Shown in pieces: positions 2,099 to 58,061 of a DNA stretch of 64,000 nt (position 1 is its first letter; each line of letters begins with the position of its first letter). The notes beneath the pieces were generated by a model that worked only from the letters and a program-made list of their open reading frames with translations, did no database searches and was not told the origin of the DNA. Source of the stretch: Styela clava (lineage: Eukaryota). The position numbers and the translations under genes were made by a program. Location of the stretch: contig NC_135258.1 of the NCBI RefSeq assembly GCF_964204865.1, positions 17,422,001-17,486,000 of the forward strand. The letters run 5' to 3'.

Positions 2099-2175
2099 TA
2101 TAATTTACTTCCGTGAAAACCAACGCTGGATTAAAACTTCGTACCGGTAAGCCTATTTTGCCTTAACAAAGCATA

Positions 2176-16426: not shown

Positions 16427-17240
16427 ATGGCAACCTATGTCATATTCGACCTAGAAACTACTGACTTGCGAGATCGAAAAATCACAGAATTTTGTATGTC
16501 TGCCGTTGCGAGATGCCATCTCGATGTCACGGAAAATGTAAATCCATATTCAGTGATACAGGAAAAGATTCGAATATCTGTCGACCCCAAAAGAACTGTC
16601 GAACCAGTAGCAGTAGACCTAACTGACTTAACACGGAAAGATCTCTTGCTACGTCAGAAACTACCGTGGAGTTTGCTCACAAACACACTATCTGCTGATT
16701 TTTTGAAACGGCAGACACAACCATTGTGTATTCTTGCTTTCAATGGAAATAGATTTAACTTCAAGGTGTTGAAAACGCATATAGGTTCTATGCCCGTCGA
16801 GAAATATTTCTCTCGATACTTCAGCGCAGACGTAATGGTTGGAACGAGTCGCCTCTTGATGGAAAAGGGCGTAAAACTAGGGAATAAAAAAATTGGATAC
16901 TATGTTCAAACATTTGGTTGGAGAATGTGAAATCCAGGAGCGTCATTCAACTGAAGAAGATGTAAATGTCATAATAGCATCATTGCAGAGATCGCCAGGG
17001 GATATTCTTCAATGGTTTGATCAATATAAGGTAGCTTTTAACCGTCGCTCTTTAGCACGACCTCAGCTGAAGAAAAATAGGACAGTGGAAAAATGGGATG
17101 AAAAAGAAAACGTCACATCACCTTTAAAAAAAAAAATAAAGAAAATGAGAATGAATTGTCACCTTATTTTGACACGGAGAATTAGAATGACTCGTCATCT
17201 CCAACGTCATAAACACAAGTTACCAATTGATGTTTCTTAA
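16427..17240 (+). pseudogene. Second TREX-like exonuclease copy, frameshifted
   Basis: Highly similar to 1-789; one extra A in the run at 16886-16892; ExoII Asp changed to Asn (RFNF); ExoIII reads HSTEEDV. Confidence 0.85.
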
Positions 17241-25443: not shown

Positions 25444-28400
25444 ATGAAAACAGGTGAGTAATACAATTTTTTTTTTCGATTTTCTGTTAAGAGCATGTGT
25501 TTTTAAAATATTTTTGTCACGTTTCAAATAAATTGAAAATACCCTCTTCGTGCTATTCAGATTCATTCAATATTTTCCCAAACTCTCATTACCTATAAAA
25601 TGTCTGCGTCTGTGAGTCTCGATATACTAGATGAAAATATGCACAAAATTTTTGGTATGTGATTAAAAGTGCCACCCGGTTATTATCTTATCTTGTTTTC
25701 GAAAATTAATATCGATAATTTGGCTTCAATCATAGGAAATATTTTTCCTTCATGAATTATTCTGTGATAACAAAACTGTTTGATTTCTAAAAAATACATT
25801 CATTATGCGACGTGTAAAATCACAATTGATTATGTGCTCATGTCAGTGTTGTGAACCTTCATAATTGGTTGTTCTTAAGTGACGAACAACTGCAAAATAT
25901 TTTTTCAGATCGGAGATTCAAGTATTTAATGAAAATTATTAGGATTGTGACTTTAATCATGTCCTGTGCAGTATTGAAATCAGTATTTGCTGCCTCGTCA
26001 GTGGAAAAATGTCGACAGAATAGTTCAGACACAAAATTTGCAAACAATGGGTAAGATTTGAAATATTATTTTTGTTACATATTTGTTATTTTTGAATCGA
26101 AGTGTCTGTGGATTGGAATTGTAAGAAACCAATTCTATTTCAAGTTATCGTGTATACACGGTTATCATTTGCTACATAGATGATGTTCTAGATAATATTA
26201 ATAAATTGAATGCAATTGTATGATTGTACAGGAATCACGCTAATTGTTGAGTCTGATGTTGAAAACTTATTCCATGCACCATGCTAAAAATAAATTGTTG
26301 GGCATATATGTAATTTTTATCGTATCAAATAGAAATTATGGCTCTTTTAATTTATTTTTTGGCTTCACAAAGTTTACAGACCAGACATTCCAAAATGGCT
26401 GACATTTAGAGGTGTTTGTCTAAGATGCCAAGATGGCTTCTTATATTATACAAATAAAAAATTTAATCTGAGAATGAAAAAATAGGTTTAAAACGAAATT
26501 AACTGTAACTTATATTTCACTACTAAAAAATTATCGTTTTTGTTTTATCATCCTTGGCGCCTTATGCGTTATAGGCGATCATATAAGTTATTTCATACCA
26601 GAAACATTTTGGCCTGTAATACTTTCACAAACACATACTAGTTTTCATAAATAATCCACTAACGATTTTTTCAAATATTCCGAATTTGAGATTATGTACG
26701 CAGAGGAGGAAATCGGCTTGTTTGAATCCGTGTGATTTTGTGTTTTTGTCGCGACGAATCGAATTCACTAATATCCTATCTCCAGAAGCAAGGTTTGTTA
26801 TAAGCCACACAATCGGGATGTATTTACATATTATAATGTCGCACGAGAAGTAGTTAAGTTTAATATTTGATGATTGTTTGTTTGTTTGTCCGTTTTTATC
26901 CGATGATTAGCCGGAAAACTAATCCCCACATCCATTGCTGTTTTGCTGTATAAAGATTGTTAATGAATGAAGTTAGAGGACGGAAAAAATACAGATTAGA
27001 AAAATCATATTATAGGGATTCCTGCAATCGAAGCATTTTAGTTTGTTCAAATTTTTTACACAATTATCACCTAAAGTTTACGTTATCCCATGAAAATTTA
27101 TACTTATCCGCGAATAAAACATGCAAATAGCAAATTTTCTTATTGTGCCATAGTTACTGTATTGCATTTTCCCCGGGAATTTGTGTGAAATGTAACAATT
27201 TAAGAGTATTACCTCTTATATGGTCAATGTTGAAGCAATGTGTTTTGAAAAAGTATTTTGAGCTGCGTGTCGAGTAATTGCACCCAAGAAAGCATTGATC
27301 TGATGTAGCTGAATCTAGAATTTAAATTATGGATAAGACTACTTGATGTATGACTATAAACGAGGTGTCATCAAACAACAGCGCATAATTTCAATCGTTA
27401 TATTAGCAATTTTTGCCAAATATAACCGCCGTACATGTTTTTGCTGACGCAATGAGTTGTCATGACACAATTCATTATGAATTCAACAGAAGACAAGATG
27501 TAAACAAATTTAGGGAACACTAACATTAGTGCCAAATCCATTTGTGTTTGATTTAAATAAGTTGAAGTCAAAAGTTTTTGTGGCTTAACTAGGAAAATTC
27601 CCTTTTCAAAATTCTTTTGTCATCAGAATACAAACATAAAGATTTATTAACATGAACATATCTACATTAAAATCGGTGTTGTTTTGTTTTTTGTCAGACA
27701 GTAGTTGCAAACCGTGAATTTTTAATAAAGTTTATAGATTCAAATTCTGTTCTGTTTAAAAATAAAATATTTTATTCCATCTTGTTAGTAATAGAATAAA
27801 ACCCAAACACATTATTTCTCATAGATTATCCATTCTGATTTTTTTTAAACGCATCTATATAATTGAGTAAATTTTGAATACCTCATCGCTCCCAAGATCG
27901 ACTGTTTAGGACTTTCCTACCAGATAGGAAGTGATAACGATAGTGCTTTCATTTTATCAAATGAGTCACAGGGCGCCAGATATGAGTGAGAGGAATAATT
28001 CAGATCCGTAAAACTGATGCATATTGCCAGGGTTCGTGACCCCACTTTCGACAGAAACATGCCGCTCTTCACACAAAATCTATACTTTAATTTTTTATTT
28101 CATTGCTCAATCAATCTACATTGTACTATTTTTTTCATTATTGCATTACCAGATACGAAGGACTTGTAGTTGTGGTTGGAGACGACATAGAACAAGACTA
28201 CAGTCTAATAGAAGACTTGCGCAAACTAATAACCGCAACTTCCGAAAAAATGTTTCAAGTTACCAAGTAAGAACACGAAAAAGCTTTTTCCGTATCCGCC
28301 ATTTTAGTTCATTCACTTCACGTTCATGGTTCAATGTTAGATATTCTGATCTACGGCATTTAAGGGTATTTTATAACCCAAGAAAAGTAAATTATATGAA

Positions 28401-31400
28401 TATTTTATATAAATTAGCTTTCTTTTTATTAAAGATGATATCAGTGCATGGATACTAGCGTATATTCACAAACATAACGTGGGGATCTATATAAAGTTAT
28501 GGCTGATACAGATAACAAAGCTATGTCAAAACTATTATTTGAGACTAGGGCCTGAAGCGAATTAGCATCTCTAATCGTACTGTTGAAACATTTTTTGAAT
28601 ATTTTCACAGGCGTCGAGCATATATTCGACAAGTTTCTGTTTTGTTACCTCGATCGTGGGGTGTTCCTCCAAAAGAATTTGAGAATATCATGAGTGTCAA
28701 AACTGACACAGTTCATACAGTGGATAGAGGAGATTTTAGGCTACGCAATCGATCTCCGAGGTAAATCAATGATATAATCAATCATGAGTCAGCTGCTGAA
28801 ATCTTCTCTCATTTGAGGTGTTTTCCAAAGAATTGATTCAAATTAAATTATTTAAATCAGAAAATTACAACTCCCTTTTTTACAATCACATGTCTTATTT
28901 TTGATGAACGAGTCAAATATTGTTATTGCAATAAATTCAAATATTTAGGCAAATTAAATAGTTTGAATAACATTGTACTATATGCCAATTCAGCCACGAA
29001 GGAAAATGATTGTCAATTTCAATAAAATTTAGTTGAATTATATTCAAATGCAGGTCAGATAATGAAGACATTTCTTGGCAACTGGGCGATGAGGAGGCAC
29101 AAGTTGACATGCCATATGTTATCAAACCGACACCATGTGGATACTCAGGTCGATATCTCCGATTGACCCCAGAATTTGTGAGGTTTGGCGGAAAGGCATC
29201 GGAAATGGGCAAGATGGGATCGCCCGAAAAAATCTTAGTCAGACAATGGGCTAAATTACGTTGGGGAGTGTATGATGAAATTCCTCTCGACGACTCAGAG
29301 TCGAACTTTTATAGACACACCGACTTAGAGGTTCATCCGATTGCTTGCTCGGCTGCTATTACAGGTTAGTTTGAAATACATCATATTGACTCATTATGAG
29401 GTTGATTTAAATAACTGTCTTCGAAAAGAACATGTACTTGTCGTTGCCGTGTTTAAAGAGTCGTTAATAGTACTGGATAAAATACTTTATGGGTTATAAC
29501 GTAGGAGTAATTATTGAGAAAATGACTCCAGCACAGATCTAACGACAACAGCAATCGTCGTTAATTACACATAACTACGCAAATTTCGCCATGCCATGTG
29601 AAATGCATACATGCTACTTTGAAATGCAATTATCCCTCGCTATTCCCCTTTGTCTGTCTCTTTGTAGTGACCAAAACAACGCTGATACGATTATCGTGTA
29701 GGTAACCCTATGTTTCGCGGAACCACCTTTTGGTGTGACACTGTTTGAACCATATTCGTCGTGAATCTGGTTTATTATTGGTAAATAAAAGTGGATATCA
29801 CCACGGAAACACACCTATATCTTGCAAATCAGATGCAAGGACTTTTAGCTATATAAATTATGTATATGTTTAAGGGCCGATACGAATTACACAAACTTTG
29901 TCTGCAAGTAAATATTCCGGATGGACGAAATATAACACTTTTGATGCTACATCAACATGCACAATACAATTTTTTCATATCACTCATGTAAAACAAAAAC
30001 GGTTCATTTTATCGCCAATCGAGTAGAATCTAACAAAATATTTTTACAATTTTCTCCAATTGCAGGAAATGAGCCAAAAAGTGGCTAATTATTCGAAAAA
30101 CCACAAATATAAGAAATTTATTTTAATTATTAAAGCACTTCACTGCAATGTAGTCGGGTAACTTATCATTATATAAGGAAAACAATTTTGAAGAATATTT
30201 TCAATAAGCAATATACTTAATTTCCGGGTTAAAACTCATTATAAACGTTCAATAACTCGTTTCTAATGATTACAAATTTATTTTTAATCTAATGAATTTA
30301 AAAATATTAATCATTTCAGTTTGGAAGATATTTTAGAAAAGTAATACATATAATGGTTTCACTAGTTTACCTCAAAACGAAAATTAGTTTTTTATGTTTC
30401 AAAATGAAAAATTGCCAGCTGGCATAAATATTTTAGCGTTTGTTCCATGTTGCAATTTAACGAAAACGACATCAGACTTTTAAGATATGGACCCGACAAC
30501 ATATTTCTGTGCGAAAGAAATTAATATTTAATTACGTTTCAGGTAAAATAATAAAATCGGACAATCCGGAAGTACCGTGTAGTAAAGAGGAAGCTCTTGT
30601 AAACAAGAATTGTACATTTAAGCCTGACTCTACGCCGTCGAAGACTGTAACTTCCAGAAAAACTTCTTTTGATGAAACCGTCGGAATTACAGGATTCGCC
30701 TCATTAATGTACAGGTACAAGAAATATAGCTGCGTGGGAAGTGTACTAAATAAAAGTCGATATTAAATCGTAATGACTACATTATGCAATAATGTTATCT
30801 CAACTATTTTCTCGGTAAATCAGGATGTGTAACTGCGCAAATGTTGATACCATAAGTATTATTTTGTGTGAATTTCACATTTCACACAAAATTTTGTTTA
30901 CAGTGCATGAGTTGGCCTAGTATGGCACTGATATAGACTTTGTTGACATCGCAGGTTCTAAGTTCAATTCCCATGCCCACGTTATCGTCCAGTGGTGTAA
31001 TAAATTAAGCACCAGCATTCGATGCTTTTAAAAAGGGCTTGTTTGGGGTGACAGGCGTATGAAACGTCGTAAATAATATAATGCGTTTAGTCGATACGAT
31101 ATATATTTTCTATTTCAGTCCTGATTTGAGTTACGTCGATCATTTCTGTGACACTGTAGAAGAATCAGAACAAGAAGTGCCCGAAGAACAACAGCATAAT
31201 GCAGAAGCACCCACGTTACATAATTTGCATTGTCAAGGTAGGCTAAGATACTTTGTTTTATTTCGCCTATGCAACGGACCTGGTGTTTGGTTTAGTGTGC
31301 GTCAATTTGTTCCTGATAGAGTTCAAACCGAATTTTCTTCAAACCCTCCTGATGGAAATTAGAACTTATCAGCTTTCTTGAAGCGTTCCTGAGTCGTAGT

Positions 31401-34400
31401 AAAAGCTGATCCGAACCAACAGTCTGTGCTAATTTTTTTTTATCAATTTATGCTTTTTACAGGAAAAAGTGTATGGGAAGTAATAAGAACTCATCCAGAC
31501 TTTGCGAACGGAAATAACCCCCCACTTCCAGAAAGTTCTATTCCTCCACCGATTGAATTCAGCCTATTAAAAAATCCGGACAGGTACTGAAATAAAAAAT
31601 TCAAAAATACCACGGAGTTCTGCTTTGGTCTCATTTTGAATCCAAATTGAAAACTAACACAGACAATACAAATATTTCTCAAAGCGCGTTGGGCTGTACG
31701 GGTTACTTCATCAAAAGCAATTCGTGCCTATTTACTATAAATGTTCAAATTTATATTTCAAACTATAGACGTATGGCTGCCTGATTTTGATTTGTATCGG
31801 TGGGAAACTTATTTGCTCGATGTTAATTTAAATTTTTTTAAATTAAACTAACTGTAACATAAATTCGAATAAATGTCAGAAAGTTTCGACCATACAGATA
31901 AAATAAGTTTATTTATCTAAAGTTAATTAATAAAATGTATTCTGCCAACAATTTATTTATACACCAATTCTAAACGTATTATGATGATCAGCAATATAAA
32001 AACGTATATACTCACGTTTATGTAGAGTAAAAACTGTTAGTATCCGGTATTTTAATTATGATTTTTTGTGTCATTTCTAGGAGGATTGTTCTCGTTCTCG
32101 ACATTTCGTCCAGTATGAAGTTTTTCAATCGAATGAAATTGATGAGACAAGCAGCAAGTCAATTCATTGATACCGTACCGGAAAACTCTTGGATCGGGAT
32201 TGTTACATTTGCAGCGTAAGTTAGTAATGAAATAATAATCAACAACAAATTTTCAATATAGTATGCCATTCGAAAGGTATATCCTTTATAAAGTACACTT
32301 CAAACAATATCAAATTATCTCTTTTAGAGAAGGAACGGTGATGTCAGAACTCATCAGAGTTTCATCAAACGACGTGAGAAGGTTATTAAAAGAACGTCTT
32401 CCCAATTTTCTTGTCCCCGGTGAGTATGCGCGATTAGATATTTTTTAAATTTATTTCTCCAGTATGTGGTTGATGCATTTATGAGTGTATCATTGTTCTA
32501 CATTTATTGTCTAAAAAATTTCAATCATTTCCCGTGTAGAATGTTATAAATGTATTCATAACAGTTCCAATCTCCGTACCAAAAGTAATGAAATTGAAAT
32601 AATGAAATGAAAGTAATTCTTTTATAATATCTAATGTAAAATCTACGACGGCAAATATCTCTTGTTAGGGGCAAAAAAAATTTAGAATCGCGATATTTAA
32701 CAACACTGAAATTAGTAAAAACGCATTACGATTGCGAAAAGACATTCATTACTAAAACGAATAGGCGCTAATTAGATACTGAAATTACCAAAGGGTTTGA
32801 AAAGACTCTAATTCTAAAATAAAACATTATTTACTTGCAGGGACCAGTATCGGTAGCGGTATTAAACTTGCACTGCAAGTTTTAAAATCATCTGGTCCAA
32901 AGCATATGAGAAAATCGGGTGGAAGTATGCTTGTTTTGAGTGATGGAAAAGAACACAACAGTCCAAAGATCAATGACACATTGTTGGAAGTAAAAAAAAT
33001 TATTATCTCCTAGTACAGAAAAATACAAACTCCTTGCATGGTTTATAATACGAAGGATGTATCTTTAATTTAATGTACAATAAATTTTTAAATCTGCTGC
33101 TAATTGTCATCGTTTTTGAAATATTTAATTTTATAATCCAGGTTATTGATTTTGGAGTTCGCGTTACAACAATTGCTTTTGGTGCACAAGTAGCAGACGA
33201 TTTGGATGTTTTAGCCGAAGTGACTGGAGGTTCTGCATATTTTGCGAGCTCAGGGGAGTTTAGCGACAATAGTGAGTTACGTGATGCATTCCTGGCAACG
33301 ATTGACAATCCAGAAGGTAAACTCCCAGCAAAAATTCTTTATGCAGATTGATTTTGAGCGATTATCTTAGTACAATCAATTCATATGAAGATATTGAGTA
33401 CAGGCGACGCATTTTTAAAAAATATATGATATATTACAAAAAATAAAATAATGGCAAGTGAAAAAACTCTAAGTCGTATGAGATCATTAGCGTATCTGGA
33501 GTTTATACACTTATCGTATATTTTCAGGTGTCGCTGGTAAATATCGAAATCATTAGATATATAATGGATGCAGGCTCAAAATTAATTTTATAAAGTAAAA
33601 TAATAATATATTAATGTGCAATATATAGTAACCTAGTGTCCCAGTTCATAGCTAAATTTATTTTAAATTTACCAAGAGTTCAAAAAAAAACTAGTTGTTC
33701 AATCTAATTAGCTTTAGAATTTATTTGCAGATGACATGGTTGTTGTTTCAAGTCAGTCGATACGATTGAAAGCTAATTCGTCCGAAGGTCACACTTTCAT
33801 TATAGATGAAACAATCGGAAGAGAAACTAGGATTACAGTGCTTTACACCGACACCGTAGCACCTAAGGTAAATAGTAGAAATGGTGATGAAAAATGAATT
33901 GTGAATTTCACAATTACTAGTCTTTGCTACTTTCTATACCAAGTTTCACCCAGAACAAGGCCATGTGCAAGTATACACTGCCACATAAGAGGCTACTATT
34001 TTTTATTGAAGTGTCGTAATTTTTACGGTTCAGGATTATCTTTTCAATTTATTACACTCTGGGCGAAGTGTTATCCATGGTTCATTTTAACAGTTTTGTC
34101 CGACAAAGAAGAGATTCGTTTCTGTGATATTAAGCATGCATACGAATATTCAAATTCAATCTTTCTCCAAAGTATATTTTTACTTATTTATTACCATTTG
34201 TGAGAAATTATTATTTTTAATCTAAAAAGGAAGTTACTATATATTATAATGATGAATATTTTAAGATCGGACTGGAAAATCCTTGGGGTGATGTAATGTG
34301 GGAAGACGATGATATGTTTGATACGAACATTACAGCTGAGTTTTCTTCAGATGAAAATTTTTCAACAAAGACCATTCAATACTTTGGATACATGGAGGTA

Positions 34401-37400
34401 AAATATAGTTCGCAGTCAAAATAATAAATAATAATAGTGAACATTTTATTAAAAATTAGATTTTGCTAAATCTGCCTTATATAATCCCTGTTATTTGACT
34501 CCTTTTTTTCTTGTTCAACTAAAATTCTTTGAAAGCGTTGTGTTTTGTGCATTTACACTGCAACTAAACTTATTTTGGTAAGAAAAATTTTAAGTAATTA
34601 CTATTTACCTCACTCCATATAAATTTAATTTGGTCGAATTGAATTCTTAATCACGTACTTAACTAAACCTTCGAATAATATTCATAAACGTAGTAATTTC
34701 AACTCTTATATCATTGTATTAAAAACGAATGAGTATCTGGCAAAATTCTCAATCAATTACTTTTTGGTATATCCGTAACAAAATAACCGAAAAAATTGTC
34801 GTAGAGCGAAGTATACTTATTCAGTGTCGAGAGATAATTAAATTTGTGGATGAAATTTGAGTTTACCAAAAAGGAAGTAGAAATATATTTTGTGGGGAAT
34901 ACCTAGCATTTTAAATATTCCACATGTCAAACACGGTCACTGTTTTCAATTGGTTTAGTGCATTTCATTAATAATTTTCGTGTTTGAGTGCTGAACCGCA
35001 TGAAATTTTAATGCCTGTGCTATCTAAGCACAAATCCTATACAACAAGAATGATTTTAGTCATACATTATTTGTTTTCAAATGTACATGTAAAATATTCA
35101 TGAACAAAAATTAATGAGAAACAAAATTTAATACAAAAACAATCATTAAAAAAAGCAACAATAGTGAAGCACGGATATTTATATTTTAGCCTGGAACGTG
35201 GACGCTTCTGTTGAAAAACCAGAGGTTGCAAAACAGTGTTACTGCTGACATCTCGGTTTTCTCCCATCCCGCAGAAGAACAGGAAAGTTTGGTTCTCTCA
35301 CCAGCATTACTTTGTAGGATAATAAATTACAGTGGAAGCGAAAGCATTGTCATTTATGCACATCTGAGTTATGGTAATCCATTAAATTAATTGTAATAAA
35401 CTTTTGCTTCATGTTACGTTATTGAGGTCAGTTTGCAATGCTGTTTTTTTATTCATCGAAAACGAAAACTACCATCCTGTAGCATTATTAGCTGACGTAG
35501 CCGTTACTTTCTACTGTCAGCTAAACAGTTAGTTTGGCAGTTTTTAGTGCTGTCAGTTATTTGCTATTGTCTTCAATTATATGTTGTTCATTTACACAAT
35601 TAGTTTTGGTATCGGTGGATCAACTCACAAACTGAAAGAGCAAAATATTTTACCTGTTGAATCGGTTCTTATCACTCTTATTGCTTTTATTAGAAAACTC
35701 CCCGGACTGTACTGTGCCAAGCAAGCATGCGCCAAAGTTTTATTTGTGCCTCAATTGTTCTCACCATTTTTCAGGTGAGTTTGCTGTTCTCGATGCAACA
35801 GTGGAAGCTGTTGTGACTCGGCCTTTATCACTGTCTGGCAGTTATGATACGGCCACCGTTGAATTGAAGGACGATGGTCGTGGTGCTGATGTTATTGCAA
35901 ATGATGGAATATATTCAGGATATTTTACTAGATTCACATTGCAAGGAAGATACAACGTCAAGGTAACTTTAAACATTGAGTACATTGTCCACCATAAATA
36001 ATCTGTTAATCTTATTATATTACGTTGTAATCATACTGCAGCAATCGTCCCTCGCATTTTAACCCCAGTAAGACTCACGCGCAGAAGATGTTTTCCCAAG
36101 CAACTCATTCTCGTGATTTGTAGGATACCCATCGCATAGCACTTTTATACATATGACAGTATCTTTTTGGATTATTTTGTAATCAAAATGTCATTCATGT
36201 GCATGTGGCTAATCTACAAATTGTTTTACAACCTGGATTTGTCAACGCAGTTGAGCGTAGTCACTAATCAAAGTCCATCCAGGCTTGCTATGTTTTTGAT
36301 ATAATTCTCTCTGATCTCAGTGCCAATTGTAATTATCTTTTTTATTTTTGGATTAAAGGTTAATGCCGCCGGAGACGGAGATAAGGCGCGACTTGACATT
36401 AATCATATTCTTGGTCTGGGACGTCGTAAAAATGACTTGGTCAAAGTTGATACAAAAGATGTTTTACAAAATATGGGGAACAAAGAAGAGAATAAGTATG
36501 TCTACGATTATATGCGTGAATCACTGAATTCAGTCTTATTCTGAAATGCATCATTTGGTCTCTCTATTTATGTATCTTAATAATTAAATTATTTTTTCAC
36601 CAAAAGACGGAAATCCAGAAAACGACGCTCAATCAGAGGAATAACGAGTAGGATGGGAAAACTGAAAGCTTTCAAACGATGGAGCACACAACAGAAAGAA
36701 TTCATCGTAAATGACACAACTGCTGTAGTTTGTCCAGATGGGTAAGATTTATACTAATTCGAACTAAGATTTTGGGACCGTACAAACATTTGAAATTATT
36801 TATCAAACAAAAAAGCAAAACTTATTGCTTTATATTTTGAATGAATCGGATATCGAGACGGTGCCTTGTGAGACTATAGAAGAGTCCCACCCAATCTGTG
36901 GCGCATACCTAGAGGGAAATTGCCAAATCAAACATTTCTCGCAAATTAATATTTGCATTGCGTATAATAAGTTGATATTTCTGTAAAATGGGAGAAATTG
37001 ACTGTATGTTATTCTATCGGACAAAGAAGCAAATCGTCCCTAGAATTATTTTTGTATTATTTCGGTGCGATACGTATACAAGTTTATCGAATCAATACAA
37101 TAAGCATACATACCGAAGCAGCCATAAAAGTATGGCAACTAACAAGAATACCTTGAAAAAAAAATTACTATTTTATAATATTTAATATATTCAGATATTA
37201 CCACTTTCAAGACAGTTGCTATAAGTTTGTCCGAACTCCAATGGCATCATTCACTGATGCATCGAAATTTTGTGCAAATGACGGCGGATACCTCGCACAC
37301 GTGAATTCAAATCAAGAACTTTTATATATAATGGACACCATTGGAAAAAAAGATACATGGTTCGGAGGAATTCATCAAGTGGGTTATAACTTATAAAACA

Positions 37401-40400
37401 ACAAAGTAATTTTCGTATTTTTATGCATATATTTATCTTTTATCCTTCATACTTTTATTCACTTCTACAGTCGCTGAACAGAGATGACATATCAGTTGAG
37501 TTTGTAACAAAACGCATTAAAAGAGGACACGAAGATGAAGATCTAGTTGTATTGGCAAATTTATTCAACGAAATTTACCTCAATGAAGATACCAGAAAAA
37601 TAATTGAATCATTTGAACCAGATTTAGCTGGATTAAGCAGAAAAGAGATTAACAAGTATGGAAAGAAGTGAAAGTAACTTTTATCAATAACATTTTCAAA
37701 TTACAATCAAAGTAAAATAATGTTGTCGACGCATCAGTGGTAAACTCGCAGATTCAAAATATCAGTTACAATCCCTATTTACACCCCATTATCAGGATGT
37801 AATAAATTGAGTAAGCTACTCTTAACAGGAAACATCAAAGTCCTTCCACAAAAAGTAACTCCCTGAATATTAGTGTTTAGTTTTTGTATGTAGCCTTTTT
37901 CAGATCATACGTGGTCCAAATGGCTCAGTAGTAGTAATTTCCAATTTTTTCTGTCATTTTTATCAATTCTTAGATTTATAATGCTATGCGCTCGACTTAT
38001 ATAGTTTATTTATACATTTAAAGGATTATTCGAGTACTGGGAGGAACATCAGAATCTGACATTCCTTTACTGAAAGAAGCAAAATTACTGAGACTACAAA
38101 ATGTCCAAGATATGTTGACGACAGCAAGTATGCGCACTCGTACTACACAACACATGACAACAGTGAGGATACATACTATTTAAGATTGCTAATTAAACTG
38201 ACAAAACTGACTGACCTTCAATTTTTGAATTAAATGGAATATTCCAATTTCAAACATTGACCTTTTACACTATGAATGTCCCTGGGTTTCTCAGACTTTC
38301 GTTATCCGTGGCCTTCGGAAGACTCTCGAGACATGTGGCCGCATGTTTTTCTATAAAAATCAGTCGTTCTATGTGCTACATTCAATAATACGAAAACAAA
38401 ACAGGTTAACGCGAATGAATAAATGCATTACAATAAAAGAATCAACGTGAACTGCCTTCAAATTAACGAAGTTAGTGTAAATATTACCTAGTGAACAACT
38501 TTGCTAGTGGCACCCAAATAACCACTCCGTGCTTATGCTTATAATGTAACAGAGGAGCTGAATATGTATTACAACTTGAACTGTCATGAAAAATGCTTTT
38601 TACTTTATCTAATATAACGTCAGGAATAATATTGGCTATCATAAAATATATATTTATATATATATACATATTAGAGCTACATTTTGGTGTTAATATTTTG
38701 CTATTTTTCTGACACCGTTCACCAGACAAATCACAGCCACATTCACTTTGTTGTCTGCGGGGAATTTAACTATATTCTGCGTTTAGACTGTAAGTTCGAG
38801 GAATCGACGACAAGCTGGAACTCCACCATCATCAAGTGGTGATTCTAGCGAACCATCAACAGGCGTATTTACAACGATAGCAACATCCACTGAAAATGCA
38901 ACACTCGCACTTGCAAAGAAATACCCAGATGTAATTAATTTTAGTTGATGAAAACTTTTTTATTTTTAAATGAATTGCTAGTGGTATTTTTTTATCAAAA
39001 AAACTCAATTATATTATTTACTGTATGTCTTGTTTGTATGTTCATTCGTAACTATTGCTGAGATGAACAATAATTTTGAAACAGATGAATGAAAACACGG
39101 AGTGTGTTACTTGAAATGCACACCGCTGTAATTCAAATCGAACGAATAAAAATACCAACAACTTTATCACTAAAAACTCATTGAATTTAGCAAAAAGACT
39201 ACTTTGGAAGTGGAGAACAGGATCCAGAATGCTCATGGTTTAACGATGGTAAAGTAGTTGAAACGTCAGGCGATGAAGTTTGCAACAGGGACAAGGCTTT
39301 CTTTTGTGAAAGACCAAGTATGAATATGAAAATATAAATGGTTTATTGTATTATATTGACTTGTTTGATGCATAACACATCAACCAAACTAAAAAACATT
39401 TATGAAACAGCGGCTTGGTGGGTTATCCATATCTCAGCACATGCTTTGCTCAATTATTGCGAACAAATATACTTTATTAAAACAATATTAAATCTTAGAG
39501 AGTATGAAGCTAATTCACAAAGAAAATCTCGATAACTTCAAAGCAAAAAATGCATGCGAAGGCAGCACTCACACAATATACGGATATGGGTTGAATTGCT
39601 CATAAAAGTTTTAACTCAAACAATTGTTCTTCTTCATTGCAGCATTCGCATGTTTTCGTATGTGTAATATTTAATTTAAGACTTTGAGAAGTTGAACGGT
39701 TTATTCCAAGATAAGAAATTATATATATATTTGGGTTGTCCATTCGCAGTTTAGAAAAAGAAACCAACCAAATCTTTATCATTCCAGAGATCGATCTTTT
39801 TGAACCTTCACGCATCACTGATTTGAAAGTCAAAGTTACTGAAGATCTCAATATTGTTCGACTTGTATGGACGGCCACAGGCGATGACAAGACTAATGGA
39901 AGAGGTACGTTATAATATATTTTTGTAATCTAATTTTGACCATTGGGAGACCAGTTGCCAATTTCAATCTTGAACTAAACGATATAATGAAGTATCAAGA
40001 TGAAGCCACCATTTTACTCCATTAGTAGCAAGTTTAATGACCTTAGTCAACAACGGTTCTAGGAAAATTCGCCGTAGGAAATCTTCCCGCAGAAAATTTC
40101 GCCGCATAGGAAAAATCGCAAGGGTATTTTTCTGTAAAACAAGTATTTGTGATAAAAACAGTTTTTAAAGTATCTTTTTATTAAAAAAGATTCGTTATTT
40201 AAAAGCATACCGTAACCCTGCGGCGAAATTTTCTGCGGCGAATTTTACGGGCACAGGCAACAACAGCTAGATTAACCTAAAGCATGCATTAGAAATGTTA
40301 GTCCCGTTTCACTTTCACCTGTATAGAATACAGCTATTTCTAAATCTCGAAGCAGATTGTCGTGTGATTTAAAATGCGGAACAAGTATAGATATGTAATT

Positions 40401-43400
40401 CTGTCAACATTCTTCTTCTTTACATTCAGCGAAAGAATATGAAATACGCAATCTTAGAACGAAGCGAGCTCGAAAGCTTGCAAGGAATTTCAAAGACGGT
40501 GAATTATTGAGCTTCGCTGCAATATTAAATGGAAGTGTCGATGTTGCCAAAATCTCGGGAGAACGTGAAGAATTAGTCGTCAATTTAACAGAAATTACAG
40601 GTTGGACTTTTTTTTATATCGAGATGGGAAATTTAAATTCTATAATGTTTTGTTTAATTGTAATTTAATTTATTCGATAACAAAAAAATGGAAGTATGAA
40701 AGAGATTTTCATCGAAAACACATATGATCAACTCAGAAATCCGAAGCTTTGTTTGTCTTTAATATATTTCTAACGTAAAGGTGACGCATTACTTTTAAAT
40801 TTTTTTTTTTTACAAATATTTGACACACATTAGGAATTTCAAATTGAAAAATCATTAATGTCGATAAAGCAAAAGTTAAATTTTTTTCTCCCAATCAGGT
40901 TGCCCACCACATGCTGCACTGGACCTAATAATTCTCCTACCTCGCCGAATACTTTCTCCGAGTTCCACATCACGAATCGAAAAAGAATCAACTTTGGATT
41001 TATTCAGAACTTTATTTTCCATCTTCAAAATCAGTAAGTAAAGACTCAAACTAAGACTTGCACCTACCATGATTATTAAGCCTAAGACAGTAAACCCCAT
41101 GAATGTGAAAATTTCTACACTTGAAAAATATCTTCGGGCTGAACCTCGTCCAACTCAGATTGATTTCTTTTACTTGAGCTTTTTGCTTTAAGTGAATTTA
41201 ATGGGAATTAATAAATAATTTGTCCGACAGGTACATATGAAGTACAAGTGAGCGTTGTTGCTATACAAGATCAACTTGGGAGAGTTCTTCTGCGTGATTC
41301 TACTAGTGCCAATGAAGTTCTGAACAGTATTAGGCAGGGATTAGAACAAGACAACAGACTCAGACAGGAAGTCAGATACCGTAAGTAAAAACATATATAT
41401 TGCTATGAACAAAGCCGTAATATACCAACGAGTGAAGCACATGTTTTTGTGCTTTACCGTAACTAAAGATCGTTCATTGTTTCCATTCGATATACTTTCT
41501 AAATATCTAACCCTGTTTACCCTTCTGAATATCTAACCTTGTTTCCATTCGATATACTTTCTAAGTATCTAACCCAGTCTATCTTTTTAAATATCTAACC
41601 CTGTTTATTTCAGATGACACTGTAAAAATATTAGAAGATATGAAATCAAGGGGAAGATCGATCACACCAAAAATTTTATTATCTATATTGACGGAAGAAG
41701 ATATGGAAGAGTTGATAACATATGAAAACACCACTGATATGTTCAAAATTATCGTTGGTGTTGGAATTGCAAATGAAAGGTAATTTTTGTACATCTGCAA
41801 TGATAATTTTAATCATTTTTAGGTTTGCAGTGTAATAAATTGCGCAAGAATTACAGTCAAAGCTAAATGTACTTGATGAAGTTATTTAGAGTCGGTTTTG
41901 CCGGTGAGTGATGTTAGTTAATCCAGCGACCGCACAAGCAGTCACGAACACCTTGCGCGACATGACATGACGTTCTGCGGAGCAATGTGGAGAGATTTCG
42001 AAAATCAATTTAACAAGGGGAGGAATTGGTGCATATATGACTCAAATTAAAATATTGAGATAATTCTTTATACAGTATCCACCATAGGTAACTGATCTCT
42101 TGTATGTTTGTTCCATTTTAAAACTGCAGTGCTGCGTTTAGTTCATCAACTTGCGCCATTTTCATTGTGTTGATTCCTTCATCTATAAGCCAAGCAATTA
42201 GAAAATCGAAATCAGTATTTTTATTCTTTTGATTTACAGCTGCTGTTTTGAGTTGGTAGGTAAAATATTTATTTTTCAACAGTGACGTTCGCGCCGTAGT
42301 TTCAGATCCGCCATGTGAAAATGCAATATTTGCTTCAACGTGGAAAAACTTGAATGAAACGTATCGTGAAGTCGCATCTCAGCTGTGTTATGCAAGAAAT
42401 GATGAATATCAGGTCAGATCCTATCGAAATTAAAAAACAATTTTTTTAATGAAAGTAGTAATAATAACTTCTCATTAAAGAATTTTATAAATAATTATAA
42501 CGGATAAATTGCTAAGAACAGCACATATCAATACTGTTACTAATAATCTATTACGAGAATTATCTGGAATCAAATATACTTGCTAGGATTTTATTCAAAA
42601 TTTTCAATCATGTCGCATCTGATTTGTTGTAGGGCAAAAATCTGACACTATTAGAAAAGTTGTTTCCGTATTTTCAGGCTTGGGGCATTGTTGCTGTTGA
42701 CGAAGGAGGTTTACGCAGTGAGCCTAGCAATATTGTATCAAACATAATTCACAACCATCGGAAATTGGTTGATTGTCCACCAGAGCCAGAATTAGTAAGT
42801 ATATTCGAAATAATAATTTTAGATTTAGCTAACACTTGTGACACTCAGACAACTATGGTATCAGTCATGCTTTTCAACGCCCATCTCTATCGTTACAGCC
42901 TCAACCCAGCGTTGCAGGAATCGATGTTACAGTCGTAACCATTGCAATTACAATACCTCTTGCTGCCATTCTTGGTATCGTTGGCGCAGTTATATGCTTT
43001 GGTCAAGTGAAAAAATACAGAAAAAAGAAGAGAGAAAAAAAGGAGAGAAAGGAACGTGAAGCGGAAGAAGCGGTTAGTTACTTTAAATTTCTTCTTTTCA
43101 AATATCAATAAACATAAGCATATAAAAACTTCGATAGTAGAAAAATCTAGCGCAGTAAAATTACGTTAAATTTCCAATCTACACCGCTTAATATCCCTTA
43201 CTATTTCTAATAAGAATTGAACTGGAAACTGAATTCCCACAACGAATTATAATATATTTCAGTATAAGTGGCACTAATGTGTATATCCCCATTAAATGAA
43301 CAATAACATAATTTACCTTCCGTACACGATTTGCTTATGTTTTCATGTCTGCTTGGAGATTTTGTCATGTTATTGTATATATATATAAATACCCACAGGC

Positions 43401-44158
43401 TGCAGAAGCAAAAAGAGCCGAAGCAATCAAAAATGCAGGGTAAGTCCACCGTTTTTGTGTCCGAGTTCTGCCGTTTCGATAACTTAAATAATAAAAAGAT
43501 ACAGAGTCTCCTGTTTTGTTTTTTTTTTGTTTCCATTATCCCCGAGTTTTGCCCTTAACCTCATTTAGGACTTGAAATTTCGACCACTGAAAATAAAAAT
43601 AAAGATTGACCACACCACTGGGGGTTATGCATTACATCAATGGATGCCATAGGCTTTGTCTCAGTCAAACTGCAACCTTACTGCTTAATTTCAAAATAAA
43701 AAATATCATATTCACCGCTACAAATCGAAACATCGAATCGTCTATAAACATGGCGTATAAACTACACCCATAAAAAAATGCGTGTGAGATTTGTCTTGAG
43801 GATTTTCGACTGTAATCAGAACAATTGACCTATAAATCTATATATAATATATATATTATGTCTGTTAAAATTGGTGTTGTAATAAATTTTAAAGATATAA
43901 AGGTGAAGGAAAAAATTTATGATTCGTTCTGCACGATCAATTTCGCATCAGCAACAACAATCCAGCAAAACGCATTTTGTGCCCAAATATTGAGGCAATG
44001 TAATGCTGTATTATGGCTTCTCAAAAACTTCTATTTTTTCTAGGATCCGTGGGAACGTTCGCGCCAACATGGTCGGTTTGTTACAAAATGTTCGGCGAAA
44101 TTCAAACCTGAAGCTGAAGATCAACAAAACAGCACCAGTGACGCAGCCACCAGTTTAA
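25444..44158 (+). CDS. CLCA: CLCA-family protein, ~33 exons; membrane-anchored pseudoprotease with extra CTLD and VWA domains
   Basis: Exon starts (approx.): 25444, 25909, 28153, 28611, 29054, 30543, 31119, 31463, 32081, 32328, 32841, 33142, 33731, 34266, 35190, 35775, 36359, 36607, 37195, 37471, 38024, 38787, 39191, 39755, 40430, 40899, 41231, 41615, 42282, 42679, 42899, 43399, 44044. Motifs: signal peptide, NGYEGLVV, LRWGVYDE, ASLMY, HNAEAPTLHNLHC, VLVLDISSSM (MIDAS), LKDDGRGADVIANDGIYSGYF, PSRITDL..WTATGDD, AVDEGGLRSEPSNI, TM helix at ~42930-43003, TAA at 44156-44158. Confidence 0.9.
30905..31070 (+). mobile_element. Probable tRNA-derived SINE remnant (intronic)
   Basis: A-box-like TGGCCTAGTATGG and B-box-like GTTCAATTCC at tRNA-like spacing; no cloverleaf recognisable. 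Confidence 0.4.
40054..40257. mobile_element. Small intronic MITE
   Basis: Repeated GAAAATT(T)CGCCG at the left, inverted CGGCGAA(A)TTTT at the right; flanked by CAACAA on both sides. Confidence 0.6.
41478..41607. repeat. Intronic minisatellite with ATATCTAACCC core, about 4 variable units
   Basis: TGTTTCCATTCGATATACTTTCTAA.TATCTAACCC occurs twice, with two shorter units. Confidence 0.7.
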
Positions 44159-44822
44159 ATTACACTCATGAAGACTTTACTTATAGACAAGTCAAAAGGT
44201 GTCACACCGCCCCACATTAAGTGCAAACATGCGACTTCCGCTCCACACTAACTATACTAACTATAAAAAACATTCATACGCGTCTACTTGGCATTTACAT
44301 TATGCACCACTGTGCTACATACATGCGCTATTACATATTGTTAGTTAAAACCATGCTGAGAATTCCAATATGGCGCACATACCTCGAGGGGTTGCAGTCA
44401 CAGTATGACCTGGACACCGATTTGGGTAACATTAACGTCGCATAGTATTGTTACAAGCCAACAAGAATGACTACAGCTGACAACTGAATCAATGAAGTGT
44501 TTTCGTTCCTCTGACGTGGTGGTTCGTATTCGCTTCCCGTAATATCCTGCTTGGTCTTGGCGATGCAAGTACACTAAGAACCGTAGTCACACGGCACACC
44601 CACCATTCAACCTTTTTCAATATACGAATTGCATTTATTGTATATTTTTCATTTATCGAAATTTTTCTTATCAAATGAATAAATTTATCTGCCTGTGAGA
44701 GATGTGATTGTCTGTCATATATGTATGTAACGTACTGAATACAAAAAGAATACTCAAATAAATTATAATAATACAACAGAGGAACACAATGCCCAAAACA
44801 AAAATTATTAGTCTGAATTCTT

Positions 44823-50071
<5,249 letters not shown>

Positions 50072-51682: not shown

Positions 51683-54600
51683 ATGGCCGGATTATTACCA
51701 CAAAGACTTATTTCTTCGACTGGAAGCGGACCTATAGCCAGAACCCAGGAGTATCAGGTAAAATACAAAATTAGTAATTTAGTACTCAAGTAATTTGATT
51801 TTCAAGCTTTCAATAAAATTATACTAAACTGAATTTACCCAGACTTTACATGTTTTTAAGGAACGTGTTGGGTTCAAGAAGTTTGGGGAAATAAAAACAC
51901 CAATTTGTATTGTGATAATTTACCAATTCATCTACCATTGAAGGAGATTTTGTTGAAGGCTATTAAATAACCCATGCTTGGTAACATATAATTTCGATTT
52001 GAAAAATGTTAGTTCAACTATTTGAAATTGTGATGTCGTGGTTGCTGTCCTTCTTAGAGTCATTTGATCATCTTCTATGGTCAATGAAACAGAAGTATTA
52101 CAGAAATATATTAACAATTACATATGTATTCAACATTTAAACTAGGTCTTCAAATCAAGTACTCATAATGCTGCTGTGTTGAATGGACTCAATGATTTAC
52201 GTCACGATGAAATTCTTTGTGACGTCACGCTCATGGCAGAGGAACAAAGTTTCCCAGCTCATAAAAACATCTTAGCATCATGCAGCCCGTATCTCAGAAA
52301 TTTGTTCAGTGCCGAAGGAGGAATAAAGAATGAACATGAGGTGAAATCATATCATAGAGGCTATACAAGTTTGTATTCAAACATTATAAGAACTCTAATT
52401 TGAGCTCAATTTTCAAAGCACGTAATTTCCACTCCAACTTTGTTTTTTGACACGTAAATCAAGTTCCTTTGATTATAACGCGGGGACATTCCTTTCACAT
52501 TCAGTTAATTACCCTAAAATAACTACACTATTGGAGATGAATTTCCGGATTTTTCATACAAATCCCCTGCCAAAAAACACTGCCAACGCTCGAGGTAAGA
52601 AAATTAGTATTTATTTAGTTAGGGTTAGAAATGCAGATTGCGCTGCAAATTCAAATTTTCTAAATCATTCCTAACCCCAACTGGATAATACTAAACGCGG
52701 GGGGTGTTTTTCTATCAAATCTTTCATTTTTGCATTAGTTGCGGGGGGCTTTGTACAAAATATCCAAATTTCTTGATTCACGAAGCAAATGTATTTCCAT
52801 AACAAAGCTTATTTCTTTTATACCCTGTCTAGTGTTGAGCATATACCTTAGCTATCGGGCTATACTCTTAAAACAGATCTTCACTGTATTATAATTGTGA
52901 AGAAATGATATTTTCAAGCAATTGTTAAGAATAGAAAATCGGAACTCGAGATGTCTAGACTGTGACAATTACAATCCATCTTCGTTCTTGTCAGTAATTC
53001 ATCCCAAACCGGTTATGTTAATTACGACGAAGCTCGGTTCAAATATCCTTGCTTTAGAAATATATAATTATATAACGGTCAATACGCGTTGATCTCAAAA
53101 TTCCGAATTTCAATTTCTACACAATTAAGTTAGTTTGCATAACAACTTTTCAAAAATAACTTTGAAATTTAGCATTTTCTTTTAATAATGTTTTCCCCAA
53201 AGGTTGTCGAAATCCGCGGTGTGAGTTCAGAAGGATTGAAACATGTTATAAACTTCGTTTACACATCGGAATTGGAGTTGACAATGACAAATGTGCAGCA
53301 TGTTCTTGCAGCAGCTGGCCACATGCAGTTGAAACCAATTCTCAATTTCTGTAAGGTAATAAAATTAACATTGGTAACTATATACTTCAAATTTAATAAT
53401 ATTTCGATAGCATTCACAGTAATATACTTCAACTATAATAAATTCATTTAATTCTTTATAGCTCTTTCGATTTTTATCCCCTTCTGCCCTCTGATATGAC
53501 TAATAGAAATAGAAAGACTAGGTCATGATCAACTTTTATTTTAATTTTTATGTTACAGGCTTTTCTTGTCACTGAGATATCCGTCTACAATTGTGTTAGC
53601 ATTATTCATATTGCTGAACATTACGAATTACGAAGTGTGGAAGAAAAAGCTTATACATTTATTGCAGAACATTTGAACGAGCTAGTTAAAACTGAAGAAT
53701 TACAGGTGTGTATGTGAAGGCAAAATACGTACAACAATTTTTACTTTCTTATATGCATGCGACCACTTTTATGATTTTAATTTATGTTCTGAAAATAAAG
53801 TTTAATTGGAAAAATCCATTCCATTCATCCAAGATTCCTCTAATGAATGTCCGAGACATGTGTTTTTATTTCAAATAAAATACAAATATGGACATATGAA
53901 ATAAACTTCAATTTATTGAACAATTTAGGATGTTCAAATTCGATGTTTGGTGTAGATGAATGAATAGTAAACGCGGTTATAGATTATCGCAATTTTTGCT
54001 TATGAAATTTAGCTTTCATGCAATAATAATGTAACCTTTGGAATTTGTTACTAATCTCGTGAATTTCTTTACCAAGAACAAAACACTTTTATATCTAATT
54101 TTTTCTCGTTCAGAAACTGAGCATAAACAATATGTCATTTTTGTTGGATTCATATTCTCTGAAAAACGTTTCTGAGCTCGAACTTTTCGAAGCAGCAAGA
54201 CAATGGCTTCTATTTGATTCGGAAAGGTATATTTTGCTTCAATATAATTATCAAATGAAAATTATAGAAAATAAATTCATACCTATATCTTATTAAGACT
54301 ATATTTAAAAAAGATTTGGAATGCGGAAAAGTACAATAGTATGCTGATCAATTTTGAGTTTTTTTGAAAAATATTCCGAATTCAATTTCGATTTCTATGC
54401 CATAAAAGTACACAAAAACGATGAAAAACACATAATAATAAATTGAGCAAGTTTTCTAAATCCTCAAGTGGCATTCATAGTTGTTACAAAAGTATTGGAT
54501 GCTTTGAAACATCACGGGGAAACCGAGATACGAGTATTTATTTTGCAGTATTTTGTTATTGCCTCATCACTAAATTTCTCATCTTTTTTTTGTTTTTGTT

Positions 54601-57600: not shown

Positions 57601-58061
57601 GCTTCTGAACTAAGTTCGGATGACCGCGCTCGCAGTCAAGACGATTCTAATATATACAGGTAATAAAACTAAAATACTAGTATTACATTTATCTATCTTT
57701 TACATTGTAACTTTATGTGCAAAGTGCATTTTTTTGCAGTCGACCACGTAGTACCAGCATAGATGATACAATATCTCTGGGTTCGCGGAATATCTTGTTC
57801 GGTAAAAATGGACTCGAAAGCGGACCCTCAGAGGCACACACTGCAGTGTCAATGCCGCGTTCGACCGCCTCTAGTGGAAAGTCTGTCAAAAGTGCAAGCT
57901 TCAGAACTCCCGTAGAAGAGAAAAAGAAAACATCTGACGAGTCTTCCAGCTCAAGTGACGACGATGATGAAGATAAAGCAAATTCTTCCTTAAAAGTAAT
58001 AAAGTCAAAAAATGAAGATAGTGAAGTTGATGAAAGTACCATTAGAGCATACAGAGGATGA
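51683..58061 (+). CDS. BTB-BACK-Kelch (KLHL-family) protein with a long low-complexity C-terminal tail
   Basis: ATG at 51683; BTB (LCDVTL..FPAHKNILASCSPY), BACK (SELELFEAARQWL, IHFPLI) and six Kelch repeats (VGG, LYVLGG, LYALGG, VYISGG, LVTGG, IYL|VGG); TGA at 58059-58061. Resembles the KLHL9/13/26/36 group; ortholog not assignable. Confidence 0.9.

What the first reader, a model, noticed from the sequence alone, without database searches (positions are those of the whole stretch)
39755..42794. Second, degenerate VWA domain nested inside the CLCA FN3 domain
Seen: FN3 begins (DLFEPSRITDL..LVWTATGDD..EYEIR) and its last strands (WGIVAVDEGGLRSEPSNIV) resume only at 42679. The four intervening exons (40899-42412) encode CP..LDLIILL..FKIS..VQVSVV..R..PKILLSI..IIVGVG..VVSDPP..L..ASQLC, the pattern of a collagen-VI/matrilin-type VWA with bracketing Cys. 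DxSxS is replaced by PRRIL and TDG by TEE, so the MIDAS is dead. Inference: a domain-within-domain insertion. I do not know this architecture from described CLCAs.
Basis: partly seen in the sequence, partly recalled or inferred. Interest (0 to 1): 0.72.

Follow-up and report, generated by a model that had tools for sequence, protein, structure and literature searches.

The report
Sea-squirt CLCA with nested VWA domain
A sea-squirt membrane protein of the CLCA mucus-protease family carries a whole extra von Willebrand A domain inside a loop of its fibronectin domain, shared by three distant sea-squirt genera, and the extra domain likely works as a metal-free binding surface on a protein that has lost its protease zinc site.

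Summary
Confirmed. The four exons 40899-42412 belong to Styela clava LOC120339079 (XP_039263070.2, 1565 aa). They splice in frame between FN3 strands 5 and 6, skipping them shifts the frame, and spliced contigs from four runs carry them on the same contig as the CLCA N-terminus. The 190-residue insert is a VWA domain: full-length profile match to Styela's matrix-type VWAs (HHalign 97.8%) but not to the protein's own first VWA (0.2%); a model gives vWF-A1-like fold (Z 13.6) while the two FN3 halves close into one domain (Z about 10). The MIDAS aspartate is lost. Orthologues in Ciona and Clavelina have the same nesting; 0 of 23 non-ascidian CLCAs and none of the other Styela paralogues examined do. 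The gene is odder than reported: its zinc histidines are lost, and three convertase-type sites are conserved, one in the loop where CLCA1 self-cleaves and two inside a 160-residue insertion that splits a C-type lectin domain. Best reading: an ascidian CLCA pseudoprotease, likely cut by furin-type enzymes, with an imported metal-independent VWA near the membrane. No paper found. VWA insertion has precedent (integrins); function untested.

The parts
25909..44158 (+). Whole coding span of LOC120339079, 32 exons located here (first 4 codons lie on an upstream exon not located); signal peptide to cytoplasmic tail
   Evidence: identical to XP_039263070.2 res 5-1565
28153..31583 (+). CLCA_N metallohydrolase-like domain (res 46-376), catalytically degenerate
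   Evidence: PF08434 E 1e-42
29241..29255 (+). Degenerate zinc motif: Arg202, Gln203, Lys206 in place of His, Glu, His
   Evidence: both His lost in Ciona and Clavelina too
32081..33316 (+). Canonical CLCA VWA1 (res 380-560), all five MIDAS positions intact (387, 389, 391, 457, 490)
   Evidence: PF00092 E 2e-15
36617..36628 (+). Convertase-type site 1 (res 827-830) in the inhibitory-domain b6-b7 loop, the loop where CLCA1 self-cleaves
   Evidence: same alignment column in three species; loop identity from 10.1101/2025.10.18.683246
37195..37378 (+). C-type lectin-like domain, N-terminal half (res 865-929)
   Evidence: PF00059 E 7e-5
37471..38930 (+). About 160-residue insertion in the CTLD long-loop position: conserved predicted-helical piece plus Ser/Thr-rich stretch, with convertase-type sites 2 (37513-37524, res 944-947) and 3 (38799-38810, res 1042-1045)
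   Evidence: helices in model
39191..39317 (+). CTLD C-terminal half (Cys1099, 1116, 1124)
   Evidence: Cys invariant in three species; assignment by cysteine pattern, no Pfam hit on its own
39788..39904 (+). FN3 strands 1-2, with calcium-site Asp1130, 1160, 1161
40430..40600 (+). FN3 strand 3, helix, strands 4-5
40899..41033 (+). Nested VWA2 exon 1: Cys1225, strand 1, degenerate MIDAS loop, helix 1; preceded by a phase-1 intron
41231..41380 (+). Nested VWA2 exon 2: strands 2-3, helix 3
41614..41779 (+). Nested VWA2 exon 3: helix 4, strand 4 (Glu1346 for the MIDAS Asp), strand 5
42283..42412 (+). Nested VWA2 exon 4: helix 6, Cys1385, strand 6, helix 7, Cys1409, then the start of FN3 strand 6
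   Evidence: joints seen in 4 of 4 runs
42678..42794 (+). FN3 strands 6-7 with calcium-site Asp1425; stalk with Cys1450
42899..44158 (+). Transmembrane helix, basic/charged helix and cytoplasmic tail (exons 42899-43072, 43399-43439, 44044-44158)
   Evidence: sequence

Best explanation
This is an ascidian CLCA-family membrane protein that has lost its protease zinc ligands and carries a matrix-type VWA domain inserted in the strand 5-6 loop of its FN3 domain; the inserted domain likely acts as a metal-independent protein-binding or spacer module next to the membrane, and the precursor is likely cut by furin-type convertases in place of self-cleavage. Shown: exon structure, single transcript, VWA identity, loss of MIDAS and zinc consensus, conservation in three genera. 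Predicted by a model: the two FN3 halves close into one domain around the insert. Inferred: a VWA exon set from the ascidian sushi/EGF/VWA matrix-protein families landed in the FN3 loop before Styela, Ciona and Clavelina split; VWA ends lie close together and are held by Cys1225-Cys1409, so the host fold survives; Cys1385 would staple the domain to stalk Cys1450; because this loop is on the same pole of FN3 as the stalk, about 20 residues from the membrane helix, the VWA would contact the dead protease head or partners in the same membrane rather than a metal-bridged ligand. Architecture about 0.97; this working model about 0.5.
For: Splicing and frame. One contig from CLCA_N to the insert in 4 of 4 runs, to the TM exon in 1 (one study, RNA status guessed but joints are GT..AG). 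VWA identity without any model: Pfam VWA has a second stretch in Ciona and Clavelina; ortholog profile hits vWF A1, integrin aL/aX, PTMP1, collagen VI at positions 1205-1383; HHalign 97.8%, E 1e-12, 173 columns to Styela matrix VWAs against 0.2% to CLCA VWA1. Model: VWA 478-666 vs vWF A1 Z 13.6, rmsd 3.1, 171 aligned, ends matching the A1 disulfide ends; FN3 385-696 vs contactin-3 FN3 Z 10.5, rmsd 2.9, 101 aligned. FN3 calcium-site Asp from both halves invariant (site from 10.1101/2025.10.18.683246). Phase-1 intron at the N-terminal Cys, one codon from the intron of four Styela matrix VWAs. Convertase-type sites in identical columns in three species; 3-4 seen against 0.35-0.6 by shuffling, P 0.0005-0.01. 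VWA2 identity 21-31% against 54-62% for VWA1.
Against: No binding, processing, localisation or tissue data. The successful model was built with VWA rows added to the alignment, so its VWA fold is partly circular (the FN3 closure is not: no other FN3 rows were given); mean pLDDT 57.5, and a first model without those rows failed (pLDDT 36). Disulfide pairs were not read from the model. Inner introns of VWA2 differ from those of the candidate donor families and no intron marks its C-terminal end, so simple symmetric exon shuffling is not shown. A tree places VWA2 among matrix VWAs but does not reject a VWA1+VWA2 clade (p-AU 0.086). Ciona and Clavelina keep the last MIDAS Asp. Fast divergence also fits a passenger role.
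Confidence: 0.52

Rival explanations
1. VWA2 is an outward-facing adhesion domain that binds matrix or mucus-net proteins in trans without metal, as vWF A1 and A3 bind GPIb and collagen (recalled).
For: Closest folds are vWF A1, PTMP1 and collagen VI domains; closest Styela relatives sit in sushi/EGF/FN3/VWA matrix proteins; rapid divergence fits a co-evolving ligand.
Against: Inferred position next to a short stalk; no conserved charged surface (pI 5.1-6.2); similarity to A1 is about 20% identity and shows fold only.
Confidence: 0.25
2. VWA2 is a tolerated passenger: inserted once, trapped by the frame and kept only as a folded plug.
For: Lowest conservation among folded domains (21-31%); long branches; MIDAS lost; removal by exon skipping is impossible.
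Against: Length, hydrophobic core and four cysteines are kept in three distant genera; one extra Cys pair appears specific to this subfamily.
Confidence: 0.17
3. VWA2 arose by internal duplication of the CLCA's own VWA1 and then decayed.
For: Same gene holds a VWA; the clade VWA1+VWA2 is not rejected (p-AU 0.086).
Against: HHalign 0.2% vs 97.8%; VWA2 profile scores 16-33 bits on 7 of 7 matrix VWAs and under 1 bit on 10 of 10 VWA1s; CLCA1 VWA crystal sequence hits only VWA1; N-terminal Cys-Pro motif and intron shared with matrix VWAs.
Confidence: 0.04
4. The four exons are a separate nested gene or a gene-model artefact.
For: An older annotation split this locus into fragments.
Confidence: 0.01

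Closest known systems
CLCA family (human CLCA1 cryo-EM, bioRxiv 10.1101/2025.10.18.683246; family survey PMC3650047)
   Same: Order MH - VWA - beta-sheet-rich - inhibitory domain - FnIII-like - membrane helix; intact VWA1 MIDAS; FnIII calcium Asp conserved; substituted zinc sites are already known in the family (five independent losses, PMC3650047).
   Different: A 190-residue VWA in the FnIII strand 5-6 loop, which in CLCA1 is a short glycosylated loop packing on the MH domain; a split CTLD between inhibitory domain and FnIII; three conserved convertase-type sites; 1540-1614 aa against about 900.
Integrin alpha-I domain (PMC12422189) and beta-I domain in the hybrid domain (recalled)
   Same: A collagen-VI-class VWA inserted into a loop of another domain of a type I membrane protein early in chordates; host fold preserved.
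   Different: Host is an FN3 of a CLCA; MIDAS is lost, whereas it is intact and central in alpha-I; the C-terminal Cys is kept, whereas alpha-I domains lack it; seen only in ascidians here.
vWF A1 / collagen VI / PTMP1-type matrix VWA domains; Styela sushi-EGF-FN3-VWA proteins (L059, L070, L080, L086, L088)
   Same: Full-length fold and profile match, bracketing cysteines, phase-1 intron before the first Cys.
   Different: The Styela relatives keep a full MIDAS and lie between domains, not inside one; about 20% identity; inner introns differ.

Membership tests
CLCA family | CLCA_N (PF08434) domain | tested here: met
   E 1.3e-42, res 46-356
CLCA family | VWA with MIDAS after CLCA_N | tested here: met
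   PF00092 382-542; five ligand positions intact
CLCA family | C-terminal FnIII-like domain with calcium site | tested here: met
   Split but complete; four Asp invariant
Active CLCA metalloprotease | HExxH zinc motif | tested here: not met
   Both His lost in 3 of 3 species, Glu lost in Styela; 9 of 10 other Styela paralogue motifs found are intact
Active CLCA metalloprotease | Self-cleavage in the inhibitory loop | not testable with these tools
   Inferred absent; a convertase-type site lies in the same loop
VWA domain superfamily (insert) | Six-stranded Rossmann-like alpha/beta fold over about 180 residues | tested here: met
   Profiles; model and fold search, partly circular
VWA domain superfamily (insert) | Bracketing cysteines of matrix-type VWAs | tested here: met
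   Cys1225, Cys1409 invariant; model range matches the vWF A1 ends; the bond itself not shown
MIDAS-bearing (metal-binding) VWA | D-x-S-x-S, Thr, Asp ligands | tested here: not met
   First Asp replaced in 3 of 3 species, loop lengthened; last Asp is Glu in Styela, kept in the other two
C-type lectin (sugar-binding) | Long-loop calcium/sugar motifs (recalled consensus) | tested here: not met
   Long loop replaced by a 160-residue insertion; the three Cys pairs are kept
Proprotein-convertase substrate | R-x-K/R-R sites that are cleaved | tested here: inconclusive
   Three sites conserved in place; cleavage not testable

The most novel reading that the evidence does not exclude
Ascidians rebuilt a CLCA mucus protease into a convertase-processed receptor-precursor: furin replaces self-cleavage in the same loop, a conserved 75-95 residue helical peptide is cut out of the middle of a C-type lectin domain whose halves stay disulfide-linked (like a C-peptide) and acts on its own, and a second, independent capture of a collagen-type VWA into a surface protein, parallel to the integrin I-domain, supplies a metal-free binding site.
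Probability: 0.22. Interest if true: 0.72.

Novelty: new variant of a known kind. Interest (0 to 1): 0.5.

Why it matters
It is a clean, conserved case of a whole VWA domain nested in an FN3 loop, invisible to Pfam in Styela and annotated only as 'uncharacterized'. It gives a second chordate example, beside the integrin I-domain, of a matrix VWA captured into a surface protein, and marks a CLCA loop that tolerates 190 residues although it packs on the protease head in CLCA1. The pairing of a dead zinc site with a convertase site in the self-cleavage loop makes testable whether CLCA cleavage matters apart from proteolysis. It does not change a general principle, and its biology is unknown.

Tried and rejected
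Single exons of the insert against Pfam: no VWA hit; whole Styela protein: no second VWA. Word-based homologue search with res 1126-1455: 13 hits among 4711 candidates, none over the insert, and it missed the Ciona orthologue, so blanks from this tool are weak. phmmer of P0001 against PDB showed only CTLD hits in the 60 of 84 rows listed. AlphaFold with six orthologue rows failed (pLDDT 36). Trial alignments with canonical CLCAs or paralogue FN3 exons mis-set strands and were not folded. Own-genome searches with the insert found only this locus. ESM Atlas on the Ciona insert gave only VWA clusters but at 0.84, a lead only; the Atlas look-up of the excisable helical piece did not complete, so that piece has no assignment. 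No run was on record as RNA; only 15 of 35 joints were listed, so the joints at 40600/40899, 41033/41231 and 41380/41614 rest on contig-length arithmetic. A 9-nt candidate micro-exon (33528-33536) and one at 37904 are not in the contigs or RefSeq. Symmetric 1-1 exon shuffling: not shown (phases 1 and 0). Literature: searches found no description of this gene or architecture; figures (e.g. architecture Fig. 5 of PMC3650047) and supplements were not seen and could list it. Earlier scan notes: three look-ups, nothing.
Full report
Identity and gene model. A search with one insert exon returned a single protein, Styela clava LOC120339079; its cluster holds the full model XP_039263070.2, 1565 aa. 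Thirty-two exons from 25909 to 44158, all with AG/GT ends, splice into an ORF identical to residues 5-1565. Domain order: signal peptide, CLCA_N (PF08434, 46-356), VWA1 (PF00092, 382-542), beta-rich and inhibitory domains, a C-type lectin-like domain (PF00059 on its first half), FN3, membrane helix, tail. Pfam sees no second VWA in the Styela protein.

The observation. The four exons 40899-41033, 41231-41380, 41614-41779, 42283-42412 encode residues 1224-1417. They total 581 nt, so skipping them shifts the frame and stops within a few codons. Four runs of one study (RNA status guessed; joints are GT..AG) each give one 4.1-4.7 kb contig starting upstream of 28153. Only 15 of 35 joints were listed, among them 41779/42283 and 42412/42678 in 4 of 4 runs. 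Contig lengths end at 41779, 41779, 43072+1 and 42745 under the full model, which are exon ends or, for the last, the base before a listed allele; they do not fit an acceptor at 39755 or a skipped insert. So the insert and CLCA_N share a transcript, and the first FN3 exon starts at 39788.

The insert is a VWA. A complete HMMER search with the fragment P0004 gave 758 hits at E 0.001; among the 150 listed only the protein itself and a Ciona protein reached into the insert. That protein is Ciona LOC100182654, 38% identical and collinear over 1552 columns. A profile search added Clavelina LOC143459166 (3 of 15 rows were these orthologues). In both, Pfam VWA has two stretches. A profile of the orthologues hits vWF A1, integrin aL and aX, PTMP1 and collagen VI with best stretches at insert positions, while the CLCA1 VWA hits only VWA1. 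Styela's own matrix-type VWAs (7 taken from the 30 loci) align with the insert over 173 columns, HHalign 97.8%, E 1e-12; CLCA VWA1 gives 0.2%. One such gene is a sushi/EGF/FN3/VWA protein. A tree nests VWA2 among them on a long branch, but does not reject grouping with VWA1 (p-AU 0.086). A first AlphaFold model failed. A second, with 22 VWA rows added, shows the alternating strand/helix pattern with block pLDDT 55-87 over FN3 and VWA2. Fold searches give vWF A1 (Z 13.6, rmsd 3.1, 171 aligned, model 478-666 = residues 1225-1413) and FN3 domains aligned over 95-108 residues spanning model 385-701, that is both halves (Z 10.0-10.5, rmsd 2.5-4.2). The VWA match is partly circular; the FN3 closure is not.

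Where it sits. A profile of the ascidian FN3 without the insert matches in one piece in 21 of 23 non-ascidian CLCAs (2 matched only the first half); the VWA2 profile hit 0 of 23. These 23 are a small, word-limited sample. Styela has about ten other CLCA genes; in 200 kb around them the VWA2 profile found nothing under E 0.2, and in 8 of 8 checked a single phase-2 intron of 326-822 nt separates strand 5 from strand 6. In our gene the matching intron is phase 0 and 4 nt further on; a new phase-1 intron precedes Cys1225, one codon from the intron of four matrix VWAs, whose inner introns differ. The insert therefore lies in the strand 5-6 loop. In human CLCA1 this loop is glycosylated and, with the C-terminal loop, packs on the protease domain, while a calcium site of four Asp lies at the other pole (10.1101/2025.10.18.683246, passages and sections 10 and 12 read). 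The four Asp (1130, 1160, 1161 before the insert, 1425 after it) are invariant in the three species, which supports closure of the domain.

MIDAS. The first Asp is Pro, Pro, Ser in Styela, Ciona, Clavelina and the loop is longer; the last Asp is Glu only in Styela. VWA1 keeps all five ligands. VWA2 is 21-31% identical between species, VWA1 54-62%. Cys1225, 1385, 1409 and stalk Cys1450 are invariant.

Beyond the finding. Both zinc histidines are lost in all three species (Arg202, Lys206), whereas 9 of 10 other Styela motifs found are intact. Such substitutions are known in CLCAs (PMC3650047; abstract, first part, passages and family section read; figures not held). Three R-x-K/R-R sites stand in identical columns in the three species (827-830, 944-947, 1042-1045; shuffle P 0.0005-0.01 for the counts). 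The first lies in the loop that CLCA1 cleaves itself, about 30 residues past the aligned self-cleavage position. The other two lie in a 160-residue insertion that replaces the long loop of the lectin domain and flank a 74-94 residue acidic piece predicted to be helical; the lectin cysteines on both sides are kept.

How it most likely works. Shown: architecture, expression as one spliced transcript, loss of consensus metal sites, conservation. Inferred: the protein is a surface pseudoprotease matured by convertases; the head stays attached through the inhibitory-domain strand as in CLCA1; VWA1 remains the metal-dependent site; VWA2, tied by disulfides and emerging at the stalk pole of FN3, is a metal-free contact or spacer near the membrane (0.52). 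Rivals: outward adhesion domain (0.25), passenger (0.17), duplicate of VWA1 (0.04), artefact (0.01).

Known and new. It is a CLCA by membership but not an active protease. VWA insertion into a host domain is known for the integrin alpha-I domain, traced to collagen VI-class VWAs early in chordates (PMC12422189, passages read), and for the beta-I domain (recalled). Eight paper searches found nothing on this gene or on a VWA inside a CLCA FN3; PMC6109156 (passages) does not mention CLCA in its main text; supplements were not read. Verdict: real, conserved, apparently undescribed; new variant of a known kind; interest 0.5.

Noticed in passing
window 37471-38930 (res 930-1085): C-type lectin domain split by a 160-residue insertion with two conserved convertase-type sites around a conserved helical piece; possible excised peptide.
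   Followed up: partly
window 29241-29255 and 36617-36628: Zinc motif lost in all three orthologues, with a conserved convertase-type site in the self-cleavage loop.
   Followed up: partly
window 2167-6374 (+): LTR retrotransposon ORFs with protease, RT, integrase, terminal repeats near 1.9 and 6.5 kb by repeated translation; frame is broken in places.
   Followed up: no
window 1-786 and 16391-17237 (+): Two related intronless DEDDh-type exonuclease ORFs (PF00929 on the first); the second appears frameshifted.
   Followed up: no
window 12346-14432 (+): Decayed hAT-type transposase (DUF4371, hAT dimerisation).
   Followed up: no
window 44700-49100 (-): Highly covered LDLa/TSP1/trypsin mosaic protease gene, tail to tail with the CLCA gene.
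   Followed up: no
window 52146-58058 (+): BTB-kelch gene with a long low-complexity tail.
   Followed up: no
L059:1-2262 (G000:C19): FN3, four sushi, EGF and VWA domains in one uninterrupted frame of over 750 codons; intronless, perhaps a retrocopy; close to the likely donor family.
   Followed up: partly
G000:C10:17256829-17262272 (L061, L067): A multi-VWA gene about 200 kb upstream on the same contig; not the closest match to VWA2.
   Followed up: partly
L043 (G000:C19): A second Styela CLCA paralogue with a substituted first zinc His and Glu.
   Followed up: no
P0172 (chiton CLCA): Intact zinc motif but also a convertase-type site in the inhibitory loop, so such a site is not confined to dead CLCAs.
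   Followed up: no
P0021-P0168: Many large unnamed proteins with up to 36 repeats resembling the first half of the CLCA FN3; two checked are FN3-repeat proteins, one with a bacterial secretion tail.
   Followed up: no
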